From NCBI RefSeq assembly GCF_003991155.1, contig NZ_CP031293.1: a stretch of 64,000 nucleotides of DNA. One strand, written 5' to 3'. The notes below the pieces were generated by a model. The model did not search any database. It was not told where the DNA came from and saw only the letters and a list, made by a program, of their open reading frames with translations. This DNA is from Escherichia coli. Its GTDB lineage: Bacteria > Pseudomonadota > Gammaproteobacteria > Enterobacterales > Enterobacteriaceae. Positions 22,001 through 60,645 of this stretch are shown piece after piece. A program made the translations under genes and the position numbers. Numbering within the stretch: the stretch's first letter is position 1; every line of letters starts with the position of its first letter.

Positions 22001-23263
22001 TACCGGGTGTTCGCGGATAACTTCGTCCAGGATATCCCAAACGACAGCTTCTTCGCGCTCAACCATTTTCTTCGCAGCTTTAATGGTGGTAGCAAGACCA
22101 CGCAGTTCCAGCTTGCCGTAGATGAACGGTTTGAACAGTTCCAGTGCCATTTTCTTCGGCAGACCGCACTGATGCAGACGCAGGTATGGACCTACGGTGA
22201 TTACAGAACGACCGGAGTAGTCAACACGCTTACCGAGCAGGTTCTGACGGAAACGACCCTGTTTACCTTTGATCATGTCGGCCAAAGATTTCAGAGGACG
22301 CTTGTTAGAACCAGTGATCGCACGACCGCGACGACCGTTATCCAGCAGGGCGTCTACCGCTTCCTGCAGCATACGTTTTTCGTTACGTACGATGATATCT
22401 GGCGCAGCCAGATCCAGCAGACGTTTCAGACGGTTGTTACGGTTAATGACGCGACGATACAGATCGTTCAGGTCAGAAGTCGCGAAACGACCACCATCCA
22501 GCGGAACCAGCGGACGCAGATCTGGCGGCAGTACCGGCAGAACGGTCAGGATCATCCACTCTGGTTTGTTACCAGACTGAACGAACGCTTCCAGCAGTTT
22601 GATACGCTTGGTCAGCTTTTTACGCTTGGTTTCGGAGTTGGTTTCGTTCAGCTCTTCACGCAGCTGTTCGCACTCTTGCTCCAGATCCATGCTCTTCAGC
22701 AGGGCCTGGATTGCTTCCGCACCCATCTTCGCGTCGAATTCGTCACCGAACTCTTCCAGCGCGTCCAGATACTGCTCTTCAGTCAGGATCTGCTGACGCT
22801 CCAGGTTGGTCATACCGCCTTCGATAACCACATAGGATTCGAAGTACAGTACGCGTTCGATATCGCGCAGCGGCATATCGAGCAGCAGGCCGATACGGGA
22901 CGGCAGCGATTTCAGGAACCAGATGTGCGCAGTCGGGGAAGCCAGTTCGATGTGGCCCATACGCTCACGGCGTACTTTAGTCTGGGTCACTTCAACACCG
23001 CACTTCTCACAGATGACGCCACGGTGTTTCAGGCGCTTGTACTTACCGCACAGGCACTCGTAATCTTTTACCGGCCCAAAGATACGGGCGCAGAAAAGGC
23101 CGTCACGTTCTGGTTTGAACGTACGGTAGTTGATGGTTTCCGGCTTTTTAACTTCACCGAAAGACCATGAACGGATCATGTCTGGCGAAGCCAGAGCAAT
23201 TTTGATCGCATCAAACTCTTCGGTTTTAGTCTGCGCTTTCAGAAACTTTAATAAATCTTTCAC
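19040..23263 (-). CDS. rpoC: RNA polymerase beta' subunit
   Basis: 1407-aa [36 protein letters not shown]...; NADFDGD catalytic motif. Confidence 0.99.
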
Positions 23264-52569: not shown

Positions 52570-53054
52570 TATTGCAATCTCCTGTGTTGTAAATAGACGC
52601 TTCAAACTTAATTTTACGCCTACTACCATACAAGAGAGAAAGAGCGATTATTCAACCGTGATCACATTAAAAATAAAAATTTCCGCCGAGGAGAAAAAAC
52701 ACCCTCAAAAACCACCTGAATAATTAACCATCATCTTTAAAACAACACGTTAAATAATCACATAACAAACTCCATTAATCATTAAAAATGAGCACAGCAA
52801 TAGAAATTAATTATATTCAATTAATTAAAATATGTATTGATTGATGTATTGAAAATATGATTTTCATGGGGAGAGTGAAGGTAAAGAAGATGCAAGAATA
52901 AAAAGGAATATGACAAATAATAGTTCTGGTTGGGCGTTAAATTTAAGGTCACCAGAATGCTGACAAATTTCTGCCTGAGGCAGTCCGCCTACGTAGTGTC
53001 GCTACTTTATAGGCGTGGTAAGCTCCCCATTTTCAGGGGAGCAATATAAACCAA

Positions 53055-56430: not shown

Positions 56431-57582
56431 ATGAAAAACAAATTACCGCCATTTATCGAGATTTACCGTGCTCTGATTGCCACACCTTCAATAAGCGCCA
56501 CGGAAGAGGCACTCGATCAAAGCAATGCAGATTTAATCACTCTGCTGGCGGACTGGTTTAAAGATTTAGGCTTCAATGTGGAAGTGCAGCCTGTGCCAGG
56601 AACTCGCAACAAATTTAATATGCTGGCAAGTACCGGACAGGGGGCTGGCGGTTTGTTGCTGGCGGGGCATACCGATACGGTGCCATTTGATGACGGACGC
56701 TGGACGCGCGATCCGTTTACACTGACGGAGCATGACGGCAAGCTTTACGGCTTAGGCACCGCCGACATGAAAGGCTTTTTTGCGTTTATCCTTGATGCGC
56801 TACGCGATGTCGACGTCACGAAGCTTGCAAAACCGCTCTACATTCTGGCGACTGCCGATGAAGAAACCAGTATGGCCGGAGCGCGTTATTTTGCCGAAAC
56901 TACCGCCCTGCGCCCGGATTGCGCCATCATTGGCGAACCGACGTCACTACAACCGGTACGCGCACATAAAGGTCATATCTCTAACGCCATCCGTATTCAG
57001 GGCCAGTCGGGCCACTCCAGCGATCCGGCACGCGGAGTTAACGCTATCGAACTGATGCACGACGCCATCGGGCATATTTTGCAATTGCGCGATAAGCTGA
57101 AAGAACGTTATCACTACGAAGCGTTTACCGTGCCATACCCCACGCTCAACCTCGGGCATATTCACGGTGGCGACGCTTCTAACCGTATTTGTGCTTGCTG
57201 TGAGTTGCATATGGATATTCGTCCGCTGCCGGGCATGACACTCAATGAACTTAATGGCCTACTCAACGATGCGCTGGCTCCGGTGAGCGAACGCTGGCCG
57301 GGTCGTCTGACGGTCGACGAGCTGCATCCGCCGATCCCTGGCTATGAATGCCCGCCAAATCATCAACTGGTTGAAGTAGTTGAGAAATTGCTCGGAGCAA
57401 AGACCGAAGTGGTGAATTACTGTACCGAAGCGCCGTTTATTCAAACGTTATGCCCGACGCTGGTTCTGGGGCCTGGCTCAATTAATCAGGCTCATCAACC
57501 TGATGAATATCTGGAAACACGGTTTATCAAGCCCACCCGCGAACTGATAACCCAGGTAATTCACCATTTTTGCTGGCATTAA
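56431..57582 (+). CDS. argE: Acetylornithine deacetylase
   Basis: Start set at [23 protein letters not shown] (383 aa) within the track ORF. Confidence 0.97.
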
Positions 57583-57617
57583 AAAAGCAAATCAGGCTGA
57601 TGACAAAGCCATGCAAG

Positions 57618-57690
57618 CGCACGGACAGTCCCCTCGCCCCTTCGGGGAGAGGGTTAGGGTGAGGGGAAAACCGTGCCCATACTGACCCGT
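57618..57690. repeat. GC-rich imperfect palindromic intergenic repeat (Box C / REP-like)
   Basis: GCACGGACAGTCCCCTCGCCCCTTCGGGGAGAGGGTTAGGGTGAGGGGAAAACCGTGCC: nested inverted repeats (CACGG...CCGTG; CCCCTTCGGGG) just after the argE stop. Confidence 0.4.
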
Positions 57691-57993
57691 AAGCGAGTTT
57701 GTCAGCAATCTCAAATGATGCCCAAATGGTAACTACAACTCATAACTCTTTGGTGTTACTTGAGGCGATTTTTTAACATTTCCATAAGTTACGCTTATTT
57801 AAAGCGTCGTGAATTTAATGGCGTAAATTCCTGCTATTTATTCGTTTGCTGAAGCGATTTCGCAGCATTTGACGTCATCGCTTTTACGTGGCTTTATAAA
57901 AGACGACGAAAAGCAAAGCCCGAGCATATTCGCGCCAATGCGACGTGAAGGATACAGGGCTATCAAACGATAAGATGGGGTGTCTGGGGTAAT

Positions 57994-60645
57994 ATGAACG
58001 AACAATATTCCGCATTGCGTAGTAATGTCAGTATGCTCGGCAAAGTGCTGGGAGAAACCATCAAGGATGCGTTGGGAGAACACATTCTTGAACGCGTAGA
58101 AACTATCCGTAAGTTGTCCAAATCTTCACGCGCTGGCAATGATGCTAACCGCCAGGAGTTGCTCACCACCTTACAAAATTTGTCGAACGACGAGCTGCTG
58201 CCCGTTGCGCGTGCGTTTAGTCAATTCCTGAACCTGGCCAACACCGCCGAGCAATACCACAGCATTTCGCCGAAAGGCGAAGCTGCCAGCAACCCGGAAG
58301 TGATCGCCCGCACCCTGCGTAAACTGAAAAACCAGCCGGAACTGAGCGAAGACACCATCAAAAAAGCAGTGGAATCGCTGTCGCTGGAACTGGTCCTCAC
58401 GGCTCACCCAACCGAAATTACCCGTCGTACACTGATCCACAAAATGGTGGAAGTGAACGCCTGTTTAAAACAGCTCGATAACAAAGATATCGCTGACTAC
58501 GAACACAACCAGCTGATGCGTCGCCTGCGCCAGTTGATCGCCCAGTCATGGCATACAGATGAAATCCGTAAGCTGCGTCCAAGCCCGGTAGATGAAGCCA
58601 AATGGGGCTTTGCCGTAGTAGAAAACAGCCTGTGGCAAGGCGTACCGAATTACTTGCGCGAACTGAACGAACAACTGGAAGAGAATCTCGGCTACAAACT
58701 GCCCGTCGAATTTGTTCCGGTCCGTTTTACCTCGTGGATGGGCGGTGACCGCGACGGCAACCCGAACGTCACTGCCGATATCACCCGCCACGTCCTGCTG
58801 CTCAGTCGCTGGAAAGCCACCGATCTGTTCCTGAAAGATATTCAGGTGCTGGTTTCTGAACTGTCGATGGTTGAAGCGACCCCTGAACTGCTGGCGCTGG
58901 TTGGTGAAGAGGGTGCCGCAGAACCGTATCGCTATCTGATGAAAAACCTGCGTTCTCGCCTGATGGCGACACAGGCATGGCTGGAAGCGCGCCTGAAAGG
59001 CGAAGAACTGCCAAAACCAGAAGGTCTGCTGACACAAAACGAAGAACTGTGGGAACCGCTCTACGCTTGCTACCAGTCCCTTCAGGCGTGTGGCATGGGT
59101 ATTATCGCCAATGGCGATCTGCTCGACACCCTGCGCCGCGTGAAATGTTTCGGTGTACCGCTGGTCCGTATTGATATCCGTCAGGAGAGCACCCGTCATA
59201 CCGAAGCGCTGGGCGAACTGACCCGCTACCTCGGTATCGGCGACTATGAAAGCTGGTCAGAGGCCGACAAACAGGCGTTCCTGATCCGCGAACTGAACTC
59301 CAAACGCCCTCTTCTGCCGCGTAACTGGCAACCGAGCGCCGAAACGCGCGAAGTGCTCGATACCTGCCAGGTAATTGCTGAAGCACCGCAAGGTTCCATT
59401 GCCGCCTACGTAATCTCGATGGCAAAAACGCCGTCCGACGTACTGGCTGTACACCTGCTGCTGAAAGAAGCGGGTATTGGATTTGCGATGCCGGTTGCAC
59501 CGCTGTTTGAAACCCTCGATGACCTGAACAACGCCAACGATGTCATGACCCAGCTGCTCAATATCGACTGGTATCGCGGCCTGATTCAGGGCAAACAGAT
59601 GGTGATGATTGGCTATTCCGACTCAGCAAAAGATGCGGGCGTGATGGCAGCTTCCTGGGCGCAATATCAGGCACAGGATGCATTAATCAAAACCTGCGAA
59701 AAAGCGGGTATTGAGCTGACGTTGTTCCACGGTCGCGGCGGTTCCATTGGTCGCGGCGGCGCACCTGCTCATGCGGCGCTGCTGTCACAACCGCCAGGAA
59801 GCCTGAAAGGTGGCCTGCGCGTGACTGAACAGGGCGAGATGATCCGCTTTAAATATGGTCTGCCAGAAATCACCGTCAGCAGCCTGTCGCTGTACACCGG
59901 GGCGATTCTGGAAGCCAACCTGCTGCCACCGCCTGAGCCGAAAGAGAGCTGGCGTCGCATTATGGATGAACTGTCAGTCATCTCCTGCGATCTCTACCGT
60001 GGCTACGTACGTGAAAACAAAGATTTTGTGCCTTACTTCCGCTCCGCTACGCCGGAACAGGAACTGGGCAAACTGCCGTTGGGTTCACGTCCGGCGAAAC
60101 GTCGCCCAACCGGCGGCGTCGAGTCACTGCGCGCCATTCCGTGGATTTTTGCCTGGACACAAAACCGCCTGATGCTCCCCGCCTGGCTGGGTGCAGGTAC
60201 GGCGCTGCAAAAAGTGGTCGAAGATGGCAAACAGAGCGAGCTGGAAGCCATGTGCCGCGATTGGCCATTCTTCTCGACGCGTCTCGGCATGCTGGAGATG
60301 GTCTTCGCCAAAGCAGACCTGTGGCTGGCGGAATACTATGACCAACGCCTGGTCGACAAAGCACTGTGGCCGTTAGGTAAAGAGTTACGCAATCTGCAAG
60401 AAGAAGACATCAAAGTAGTGCTGGCGATTGCCAACGATTCTCACCTGATGGCCGATCTGCCGTGGATTGCAGAGTCTATTCAGCTACGGAATATTTACAC
60501 CGACCCGCTGAACGTATTGCAGGCCGAGTTGCTGCACCGCTCCCGCCAGGCAGAAAAAGAAGGCCAGGAACCGGATCCTCGCGTCGAGCAGGCGTTAATG
60601 GTCACTATTGCCGGGATTGCGGCAGGTATGCGTAATACCGGCTAA
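57994..60645 (+). CDS. ppc: Phosphoenolpyruvate carboxylase
   Basis: 883-aa [46 protein letters not shown]...; C-terminal ...MRNTG. Confidence 0.99.

What the first reader, a model, noticed from the sequence alone, without database searches (positions are those of the whole stretch)
57583..57993. GC-rich nested palindromic element in the argE-ppc intergenic region
An approximately 70-bp element with nested inverted repeats sits directly after the argE stop within a 410-bp spacer. It may be a member of a dispersed intergenic repeat family (Box C / REP-like) and could act as an argE terminator or mRNA stabiliser. The family assignment is from memory and uncertain.
Basis: inference. Interest (0 to 1): 0.2.

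Follow-up and report, generated by a model that had tools for sequence, protein, structure and literature searches.

The report
BoxC repeat element downstream of argE
The GC-rich nested palindrome after argE is a copy of BoxC, a known dispersed E. coli repeat also called the PIT or TMECO "triplex motif"; it is an ordinary strain-variable repeat, present here in about 5% of E. coli genomes where K-12 has REP/BIME repeats.

Summary
The spacer is 57583-57993, between the argE stop and the ppc ATG. At 57631-57666 it holds CCCTCGCCCCTTCGGGGAGAGGGTTAGGGTGAGGGG, an exact match to the published BoxC/PIT/TMECO consensus (type A). Conserved BoxC flanks surround it (about 60 nt, 57617-57676), and the RNA hairpin is strong (-37.3 kcal/mol, z -4.4).

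It is not REP-like, and it is not an intrinsic terminator: no U-tract follows it, and published tests of PIT elements found no terminator or promoter activity.

New context:
- The first 165 nt of the spacer (57583-57747) is an allele found in only 284 of 5426 complete E. coli genomes. K-12 has a 351-nt BIME array there.
- The window copy is a complete long form of about 122 nt (57592-57713). Its terminal inverted repeats recur at other E. coli BoxC loci and match the termini of the Yersinia YPAL/RU-2 MITE at 14-15 of 17 bases.
- Across Enterobacteriaceae, the slot just 3' of argE always holds a GC-rich hairpin: a terminator, REP or BoxC.

The most likely reading is a selfish, MITE-like insertion beside the argE terminator, co-transcribed into the argE 3' UTR. 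Interest is low.

The parts
57580..57582 (+). argE stop codon (TAA). argE CDS is 56431-57582.
   Evidence: RefSeq annotation of the 100% identical strain 2016C-3878; ORF list.
57583..57747 (+). Strain-variable, argE-proximal segment of the spacer (165 nt): the 'BoxC allele'.
   Evidence: Full-length match in only 284 of 5426 E. coli genomes; the rest match only from 57748 onward. K-12 has 351 nt of BIME here. Other alleles are 55, 105 and 474 nt.
57592..57713 (+). Long-form BoxC element (about 122 nt), a nested imperfect palindrome that looks like a MITE.
   Evidence: Homology to the rluF-yjbD copy over 57592-57686 and to the adk-hemH copy over 57617-57713. The same termini occur at the gntP-fimH, alx-sstT, yihR-yihS, gcvP-ygfF and pstA-pstB copies.
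57592..57608 (+). Left terminal repeat, TCAGGCTGATGACAAAG.
   Evidence: Matches the Yersinia YPAL left end TCAGACTGCTGACAAAC at 14 of 17 bases.
57697..57713 (-). Right terminal repeat; its reverse complement is TGAGATTGCTGACAAAC.
   Evidence: Matches the YPAL left end at 15 of 17 bases, and is inverted relative to 57592-57608.
57617..57676 (+). Canonical BoxC unit (about 60 nt) with outer stem CACGG 57620-57624 / CCGTG 57671-57675.
   Evidence: The flanks GCGCACGGACAGT and GGGGAA(AACCGTG) are shared by copies at four other loci. The published BoxC length is 56 bp. RNA fold -37.3 kcal/mol, z -4.4.
57631..57666 (+). TMECO/PIT triplex-motif core: C-block CCCTCGCCC 57631-57639, loop CTTCG, G-block 1 GGGAGAGGG 57645-57653, loop TTA, G-block 2 GGGTGAGGG 57657-57665, then G.
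   Evidence: Exact match to the consensus CCCTCNCCCN3-6GGGNGAGGGN3GGGNGAGGG. It differs at one loop base from K-12 TMECO copies 7, 11 and 15.
57710..57726 (+). CTCAAATGATGCCCAAA, a locus-specific motif shared with the linker of the BIME alleles.
   Evidence: 17 of 17 identical in the E. albertii spacer. The K-12 linker is AGTGACTCAAACGATGCCCAAC. The motif occurs only at argE-ppc in 5 of 5 metagenome hits, including a 4.64-Mb genome contig.
57739..57774 (+). Relic of the argE intrinsic terminator: weak hairpin CTCATAAC / GTTA-CT-TGAG, then GCGA and T6 (57769-57774).
   Evidence: The hairpin folds at -5.4 kcal/mol. The 3' arm plus T-run aligns with intact Citrobacter argE terminators, which fold at -17.5 to -21.4 kcal/mol.
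57748..57993 (+). Conserved ppc-proximal part of the spacer (246 nt). The ppc promoter/leader role is inferred, not tested.
   Evidence: 98-99% identical in essentially all E. coli genomes. It corresponds to the minimal spacer of about 232-245 nt seen in other genera.

Best explanation
The feature is a complete, long-form copy of the BoxC repeat (also called the PIT element or TMECO intrastrand-triplex motif), a non-coding repeat dispersed through E. coli and other Enterobacteriaceae.

Anatomy. A 36-nt core has one C-rich block and two G-rich blocks. It sits inside the conserved BoxC unit of about 60 nt, which in turn sits inside an imperfect palindrome of about 122 nt bounded by 17-nt terminal inverted repeats.

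Likely origin and behaviour. It is most likely selfish or near-neutral DNA that behaves like a miniature inverted-repeat element. It landed 9 nt after the argE stop codon, beside the dyad of the old argE terminator, in a slot that other lineages fill with REP/BIME. Because it lies upstream of the terminator relic, it should be co-transcribed as part of the argE 3' UTR. There it would fold into a very stable hairpin, with the C-block pairing to G-block 2. That hairpin could slow 3'-to-5' decay, but it does not terminate transcription itself.

Shown: identity, copy number, structure potential, strain polymorphism, and shared termini with other copies and with YPAL.

Inferred: the MITE-like origin, co-transcription, and any effect on mRNA stability.
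For: - Exact match to the published consensus, type A.
- Family flanks are conserved at four other loci.
- Median of 18 places per genome in 5408 of 5426 genomes.
- Stable fold: -37.3 kcal/mol, z -4.4.
- Present at this locus in only 284 of 5426 genomes, with BIME alleles elsewhere. This fits the published finding that TMECO loci are unusually rearranged between strains.
- Terminal repeats are shared by six other E. coli copies.
- A related copy shows clean filled and empty alleles between the rluF and yjbD stop codons. The insert is 132 nt, 1773 genomes carry the filled allele, and the empty site is a dyad.
- E. coli termini match the YPAL left end at 11-15 of 17 bases.
- YPAL is reported to insert next to dyad symmetry and to be co-transcribed with upstream genes.
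- Long copies lie beside terminator-like hairpins at gcvP, adk, gntP, alx and yihR.
- BoxC occupies the same argE 3' slot in Enterobacter, Pseudocitrobacter and an unnamed genus, in both orientations.
Against: - No empty-site allele of this particular locus was found, so insertion here is inferred rather than seen.
- No convincing target-site duplication flanks the window copy.
- No transposase is known for BoxC or for YPAL.
- Many BoxC copies in E. coli, and all of those seen in other genera, lack the terminal repeats. The long form could therefore be a subfamily, or a BoxC core captured by another element.
- The YPAL comparison rests on a single published YPAL sequence, and internal homology is not evident.
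- No expression data were available, so co-transcription and any stability effect are untested.
Confidence: 0.8

Rival explanations
1. The hairpin is a functional argE 3'-end element. It would act as a terminator, or as a protective stem-loop that stabilises argE mRNA, and would be maintained by selection for that role.
For: - It lies 9-34 nt after the stop codon on the sense strand and folds at -37.3 kcal/mol.
- In 54 Enterobacteriaceae spacers this slot nearly always holds a GC-rich hairpin, and in many it is a canonical terminator.
- YPAL elements are reported to be co-transcribed and may affect the stability of upstream transcripts. REP hairpins, which fill the slot in K-12, are classic mRNA stabilisers (general knowledge).
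Against: - No U-tract follows the hairpin, and no + strand terminator was found.
- PIT elements showed no terminator or promoter activity in reporter tests, as quoted in PMC4666352.
- 95% of E. coli genomes lack the element at this locus.
- The published analysis found no link between TMECO position and gene function or distance.
Confidence: 0.2
2. The element matters at the DNA level. The three blocks would form an intrastrand purine-motif triplex (H-DNA-like) on the G-rich strand, which stalls polymerases and makes the locus recombination-prone. That would explain the allele diversity of this spacer.
For: - TMECO oligonucleotides form triplexes in vitro, by CD and NMR.
- TMECO loci are more variable between strains than control loci.
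- This locus has at least five length alleles.
Against: - In vivo DMS footprinting did not support stable triplex formation.
- The length variation seen here is mostly in copy number of the BIME unit, in alleles that lack BoxC altogether. The instability therefore does not need the triplex.
- The BoxC allele itself is 98-100% conserved among its 284 carriers.
Confidence: 0.15
3. BoxC here is not an insertion. It would have evolved in place from the simple CCCCTC...GAGGGG terminator hairpin found after argE in related genera, by duplication of the G-rich arm. Its similarity to other copies would then come from convergence or gene conversion.
For: In the Enterobacter/Lelliottia/Silvania clade the orthologous position carries a graded series between the same flanks: a simple hairpin, BoxC, a four-block palindrome, then multi-unit arrays.
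Against: - The window copy shares not only the blocks but also 13-45 nt of non-palindromic flank and the terminal repeats with unlinked E. coli loci.
- Escherichia outgroups carry REP, not a CCCTC hairpin, at this site.
Confidence: 0.05

Closest known systems
BoxC / PIT element / TMECO intrastrand triplex motif of E. coli (Bergler 1992; Hoyne and Maher 2000-2002; Holder et al. 2015, PMC4666352)
   Same: - Exact consensus match, type A loop TTA, with the usual single mismatched triplet.
- Conserved flanks, intergenic location, about 18 copies per genome, and strain-variable loci.
   Different: - This locus is not among the 23 K-12 copies.
- The window copy carries about 30 extra nt on each side, ending in terminal inverted repeats. 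The descriptions I could read (56-bp BoxC, 34-37-nt TMECO) do not mention these.
YPAL / RU-2 miniature insertion sequences of Yersinia (De Gregorio 2006; Delihas 2007, PMC2759123 and PMC2229807)
   Same: - Terminal sequences: the E. coli ends match TCAGACTGCTGACAAAC at 11-15 of 17 bases, and the left/right asymmetry TCAGAC versus TGAGrT is kept.
- Overall long-palindrome design.
- Position just after stop codons, beside dyads or terminators.
- Filled and empty alleles between strains.
   Different: - Length is 122 nt (or about 190 nt for inverted BoxC pairs) against 168 nt.
- The interior is a BoxC core with no clear homology to the YPAL interior.
- Different host genus.
- The target-site duplication is unclear.
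REP / BIME (PU) elements
   Same: Small GC-rich palindromes in 3' UTRs. They occupy the very same slot after argE in K-12, E. albertii and most E. coli.
   Different: Unrelated sequence; no REP consensus occurs in the window allele. REP is mobilised by RAYT transposases and forms tandem BIME arrays, which is not seen for BoxC here.
Rho-independent terminator of argE (as in Citrobacter, Buttiauxella, Kosakonia)
   Same: A GC-rich hairpin immediately after the argE stop codon.
   Different: No U-tract follows the BoxC hairpin. The true terminator relic (3' arm plus T6) lies at 57755-57774, downstream of the element.

Membership tests
BoxC / PIT / TMECO | Sequence matches the consensus CCCTCNCCC-N3-6-GGGNGAGGG-N3-GGGNGAGGG | tested here: met
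   One exact match at 57631-57665, 0.00 expected by chance. Consensus taken from PMC4666352.
BoxC / PIT / TMECO | Dispersed, multi-copy, intergenic | tested here: met
   Median of 18 places per genome in 5408 of 5426 genomes. The copies fetched lie between genes: pstA-pstB, adk-hemH, rluF-yjbD, ypfG-tkt and others.
BoxC / PIT / TMECO | Conserved flanks that give the BoxC unit of about 56 bp | tested here: met
   GCGCACGGACAGT on the left and GGGGAA(AACCGTG) on the right are shared with four other loci. Published length is 56 bp.
BoxC / PIT / TMECO | Forms an intrastrand triplex | not testable with these tools
   The block arrangement allows it. In vitro triplex formation is published for near-identical oligonucleotides, but it was not supported in vivo.
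YPAL / RU-2 MITE | Characteristic termini (TTCAGACTGCTGACAAAC ... TTTGTCAATAACCTCA) | tested here: met
   Window ends match at 14 of 17 and 15 of 17 bases. Other E. coli long copies match at 11-15 of 17. Only one YPAL reference sequence was available.
YPAL / RU-2 MITE | Length of about 168 bp with homologous interior | tested here: not met
   The element is 122 nt, and its interior is a BoxC core with no clear alignment to the YPAL interior (by eye).
YPAL / RU-2 MITE | Target-site duplication and filled/empty alleles | tested here: inconclusive
   Filled/empty polymorphism is clear at rluF-yjbD, with a diverged direct repeat of about 9 nt, CGyTGATTr. No empty allele and no clear duplication were found at argE-ppc.
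YPAL / RU-2 MITE | Inserts close after stop codons, next to dyad symmetry or terminators | tested here: met
   The window copy starts 9 nt after the argE stop and lies upstream of the terminator relic. Other long copies abut hairpins at gcvP, adk, gntP, alx and yihR. The YPAL property is taken from PMC2229807.
REP / BIME | REP (PU) consensus GCCGGATG...CTTATCCGGCCTAC | tested here: not met
   No match in the window with up to 3 mismatches. REP pairs are present only in the alternative alleles.
Intrinsic (Rho-independent) terminator | GC-rich hairpin followed directly by a U-tract | tested here: not met
   The hairpin is present, but AAAACCGUGCCCAUAC follows it. No + strand terminator was found in the scan.
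Rfam RNA families | Match to any curated covariance model | tested here: not met
   Only two sub-threshold chance hits (E 0.36 and 0.62) in 57400-58100.

The most novel reading that the evidence does not exclude
BoxC, studied for 30 years as a 'palindromic repeat' or 'triplex motif', may be the core of a MITE that belongs to the same terminal-repeat family as Yersinia YPAL. Both would be mobilised by the same still-unknown machinery and aimed at terminator dyads just after stop codons. On this reading the argE-ppc copy in this window is one of the few intact full-length members. It may also be the older state of the locus, overwritten by BIME in about 95% of E. coli, with the BIME linker CAGTGACTCA kept as a remnant of the element's right end.
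Probability: 0.4. Interest if true: 0.4.

Novelty: already known. Interest (0 to 1): 0.22.

Why it matters
In itself it matters little: it is one more copy of a catalogued repeat with no demonstrated function.

It is useful in three small ways:
- It settles the annotation of this spacer. It also shows that argE-ppc, a textbook locus, has radically different 3'-UTR content in different E. coli lineages. That is relevant to anyone comparing argE or ppc expression between strains, or designing primers or constructs in this spacer.
- The BoxC and BIME alleles form a natural experiment on whether such hairpins affect mRNA fate.
- If the terminal-repeat link to YPAL holds, it gives BoxC a mechanism of spread. 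It would also explain the published 'genomic instability' of TMECO loci as ordinary presence/absence of a mobile element rather than triplex-induced damage.

Tried and rejected
- Rfam, at a permissive E-value: nothing relevant.
- Promoter/terminator scan: no + strand terminator at the element.
- REP consensus in the window: none, so 'REP-like' was rejected.
- A second BoxC copy in the 64-kb window: none.
- The non-core flanks (57583-57630 and 57667-57747) as separate queries. They are essentially unique to the roughly 285 BoxC-allele genomes, apart from weak extended matches at one or two other loci, and no empty-site allele appeared.
- BLAST of the 165-nt segment against argE loci of 80 species. 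Only BoxC cores and the 17-nt E. albertii motif matched, so no donor species was identified.
- The idea that the K-12 linker AGTGACTCAAACGATGCCCAAC is a general BIME motif. Rejected, because all five metagenome hits are at argE-ppc.
- Gene names in the supplements of PMC4666352, to see whether this locus is among its 63 TMECO loci: no hit, since the files are coordinate-based.
- De Gregorio 2006, the primary YPAL paper, is not held, so YPAL properties come from Delihas's papers.
- Two extra 3-mismatch hits of the YPAL terminus, at 22564 (inside a long rpoC-like ORF) and 52952, were judged to be chance.
- Not attempted: phylogroup placement of the 284 carrier genomes.

Full report
**1. The observation**

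The window is E. coli: it is 100% identical over the spacer to strain 2016C-3878. That strain's annotation places argE at 56431-57582 and ppc at 57994 onward. The flagged interval is therefore exactly the argE-ppc spacer, 411 nt.

Reading the sequence and running the repeat finder confirm three nested inverted repeats:
- TCCCCTCGCCC / GGGTGAGGGGA at 57629-57639 and 57657-57667.
- CACGG / CCGTG at 57620-57624 and 57671-57675.
- TGATGACAAA / TTTGTCAGCA at 57598-57607 and 57698-57707.

As RNA, the 62-nt unit folds at -37.3 kcal/mol (z -4.42, 0 of 200 shuffles as good). The opposite strand folds at -32.3 kcal/mol, and single-stranded DNA at -16.3 kcal/mol. The feature is real and not a chance one.

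**2. What it is**

That paper equates BoxC (Bergler 1992), the PIT elements of Maher's group, and its own "TMECO" triplex motif. It gives the consensus CCCTCNCCC-N3-6-GGGNGAGGG-N3-GGGNGAGGG.

The window matches this consensus exactly once, at 57631-57665, with 0.00 expected by chance. The second loop is TTA and one triplet is mismatched, so this is the commonest "type A mm" class. It differs by one loop base from K-12 copies 7, 11 and 15 in that paper's Table 1. None of the 23 K-12 copies is near argE-ppc.

A 71-nt query finds a median of 18 places per genome in 5408 of 5426 complete E. coli genomes. Alignment with copies from pstA-pstB, adk-hemH, rluF-yjbD and ypfG-tkt shows that the family's conserved unit extends beyond the core. 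It includes GCGCACGGACAGT on the left and GGGGAA(AACCGTG) on the right. This gives about 60 nt (57617-57676), in line with the published 56-bp BoxC. Rfam has nothing for it. Membership in BoxC/PIT/TMECO is therefore established. The element is not REP-like, since no REP consensus occurs in the window.

**3. The locus is polymorphic**

The suggested comparison with K-12 was the most informative step. Only 284 of 5426 genomes (5.2%) match the whole spacer. All the others, K-12 included, match only from 57748 onward.

In K-12 the 165 nt at 57583-57747 are replaced by 351 nt made of three tandem 123-nt units. Each unit is an inverted REP pair plus a 22-nt linker. Other strains have one unit (105 nt), four units (474 nt), or a single REP (55 nt). 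This fits the published observation that TMECO loci are much more rearranged between strains than control intergenic regions.

The alleles share only three things:
- TAA plus AA at the argE end.
- The motif CTCAAAyGATGCCCAA(A), at window 57710-57726. It is 17 of 17 identical in E. albertii.
- Everything from 57748 onward.

That motif is specific to this locus. All five metagenome contigs that carry the K-12 linker are argE-ppc, and one of them is a 4.64-Mb genome contig in which the motif occurs nowhere else.

**4. The slot after argE across Enterobacteriaceae**

A scan of one genome per species with ArgE returned 80 loci. In 79 of them ppc follows argE. The minimal spacer, about 232-245 nt, corresponds to the conserved ppc-proximal 246 nt of E. 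coli.

The argE-proximal remainder almost always holds a GC-rich hairpin:
- Canonical intrinsic terminators in Buttiauxella, Shimwellia, Kosakonia and several Citrobacter.
- REP-type palindromes in Escherichia, Kluyvera and C. youngae.
- BoxC three-block elements in Pseudocitrobacter, four Enterobacter lineages and an unnamed genus. These occur in both orientations and in one to three units.

The E. coli sequence CTTTGGTGTTACTTGAGGCGATTTTTT (57748-57774) aligns with the loop, 3' arm and T-run of the Citrobacter argE terminator. The Citrobacter hairpins fold at -17.5 to -21.4 kcal/mol. The window keeps only a weak 5' arm (CTCATAAC, 57739-57746; -5.4 kcal/mol), and K-12 has lost that arm to a REP tail. 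The BoxC element therefore lies upstream of the relic of the real terminator. It is not the terminator itself.

**5. A longer element with terminal repeats**

Pairwise alignments showed that the window copy is homologous to the rluF-yjbD copy over 57592-57686 and to the adk-hemH copy over 57617-57713.

I fetched 14 other E. coli BoxC loci. They show a recurring pair of ends. The left end is YCAGRCTGATGACAAAS, about 22 nt before the BoxC unit. The right end is GTTTGTYAGCAATCTCA.
- The left end is seen at the window, rluF-yjbD, gntP-fimH, alx-sstT and yihR-yihS copies.
- The right end is seen at the window, adk-hemH and pstA-pstB copies, and in degenerate form at rluF-yjbD.
- At gcvP-ygfF the ends flank an inverted pair of type A and type B cores, with the left end carrying a small deletion.

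The two ends are inverted repeats of each other. In the window they are TCAGGCTGATGACAAAG (57592-57608) and TGAGATTGCTGACAAAC (reverse complement of 57697-57713). Seven loci have short forms without these ends.

At rluF-yjbD the 132-nt element is present in 1773 genomes. In the others it is absent, and the two convergent stop codons abut within a small dyad, GGCGCTaatcAGCGCC. That is the signature of insertion or excision of a discrete unit. Long copies typically abut terminator-like hairpins, at gcvP, adk, gntP, alx and yihR.

**6. Link to YPAL**

While checking whether BoxC had been described as a MITE, I found the 168-nt Yersinia YPAL/RU-2 sequence printed in Delihas 2007 (PMC2759123). It begins TTCAGACTGCTGACAAAC and ends TTTGTCAATAACCTCA.

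The E. coli ends match the YPAL left end at 11-15 of 17 positions: window 14 and 15, gntP-fimH 15. This is better than the 11 of 17 between YPAL's own two ends. The same left/right asymmetry (TCAGAC versus TGAGrT) is kept.

Used as a pattern, the YPAL end hits both ends of the window element, in inverted orientation. Two further 3-mismatch hits elsewhere in the window look like chance, so the 3-mismatch level alone is weak evidence.

According to Delihas's review (PMC2229807, citing De Gregorio 2006), YPAL has these properties:
- It makes variable target duplications of 3-26 bp.
- It inserts at or next to dyad symmetry.
- It shows filled and empty sites between strains.
- It is co-transcribed with upstream genes, with possible effects on transcript stability.

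My recollection of the abstract of De Gregorio 2006 adds that YPAL sits close after stop codons, overlaps terminator-like targets, and raises transcript levels. I could not retrieve that paper, so this point rests on memory.

The interiors of YPAL and BoxC show no clear homology, and the lengths differ. I therefore do not file the element as a YPAL member. I propose only that the long-form BoxC works like one and shares its ends. I found no paper in the held library that makes this link. PMC2267715 lists BoxC and YPAL as separate families.

**7. Mechanism and function**

Shown:
- The element is a BoxC copy.
- It can form a very stable hairpin on either strand.
- It lies on the argE sense strand between the stop codon and the terminator relic.
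- It lacks a U-tract, and no + strand terminator was found in the scan.

From the literature: PIT elements had no promoter or terminator activity and no in vivo effect on polymerases, and in vivo footprinting did not support a stable triplex. TMECO position shows no relation to gene class or distance.

Inferred: the element is selfish or neutral MITE-like DNA. It is co-transcribed into the argE 3' UTR, where the hairpin may impede 3' exonucleases.

The direction of change at this locus is unresolved. One possibility is that the element inserted just 5' of CTCAAATG in a REP-free ancestor. The other is that the BIME linker CAGTGACTCA is a remnant of the element's right end CAGCAATCTCA, and BIME overwrote it. 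No empty-site allele was found.

**8. Verdict**

The family guess is right. The terminator reading is rejected and the stabiliser reading is untested. The feature is an already known kind of repeat, so interest is low (0.22). The strain polymorphism, the recurrent use of the argE 3' slot, and the YPAL-type termini are modest additions worth a specialist's follow-up.

Noticed in passing
L020 ~490-525, L027 ~490-525, L031 ~505-552, L037 ~585-621, L055 ~520-612, L063 ~565-616: BoxC elements, single or as inverted pairs, lie between argB and argH inside the argCBH operon in Pseudocitrobacter, Kluyvera sichuanensis, Silvania, Enterobacteriaceae bacterium 89 and Pluralibacter gergoviae. The window has no copy there.
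   Followed up: partly
L001 1150-1500 (K-12); L004, L005, L003, L007: The K-12-type argE-ppc spacer is a 123-nt tandem unit (inverted REP pair plus the locus-specific linker AGTGACTCAAACGATGCCCAAC). It is present in 1, 3 or 4 copies in different strains, and there is also a 55-nt single-REP allele.
   Followed up: yes
window 57739-57774: This is a relic of the argE intrinsic terminator. The 3' arm plus T6 is conserved in all E. coli alleles and aligns with intact Citrobacter terminators. The 5' arm is weak in the window and is replaced by a REP tail in K-12.
   Followed up: partly
L048 and L014, ppc-proximal part of the spacer: An ERIC-like core (…CCCAGGGAGCTTACATAAGTAAGTGACCTGGG…) is inserted in the ppc-proximal part of the argE-ppc spacer of Enterobacter sp. 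ENT03, with a similar sequence in Citrobacter sp. R56.
   Followed up: no
L010 370-501 versus L093/L095 ~220: rluF-yjbD shows a clean presence/absence polymorphism of a 132-nt long-form BoxC element between two convergent stop codons. 1773 of 5426 genomes carry it. In the empty allele the stop codons abut within a small dyad.
   Followed up: yes
L043, L046, L047, L051 (first ~120 nt after argE): In Enterobacter species the slot after argE holds a graded series between identical flanks: a two-block palindrome, BoxC, a four-block palindrome, and arrays of two or three units. This suggests local duplication or deletion of BoxC blocks.
   Followed up: no
window 52952-52968 and 22564-22580: Two 3-mismatch matches to the YPAL terminal pattern lie outside the element. 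One is intergenic near a 457-aa ORF that appears to be argH, and one is inside a long rpoC-like ORF. Both were judged to be chance. They also show that the shuffle-based expectation (0.08) understates background at 3 mismatches.
   Followed up: partly
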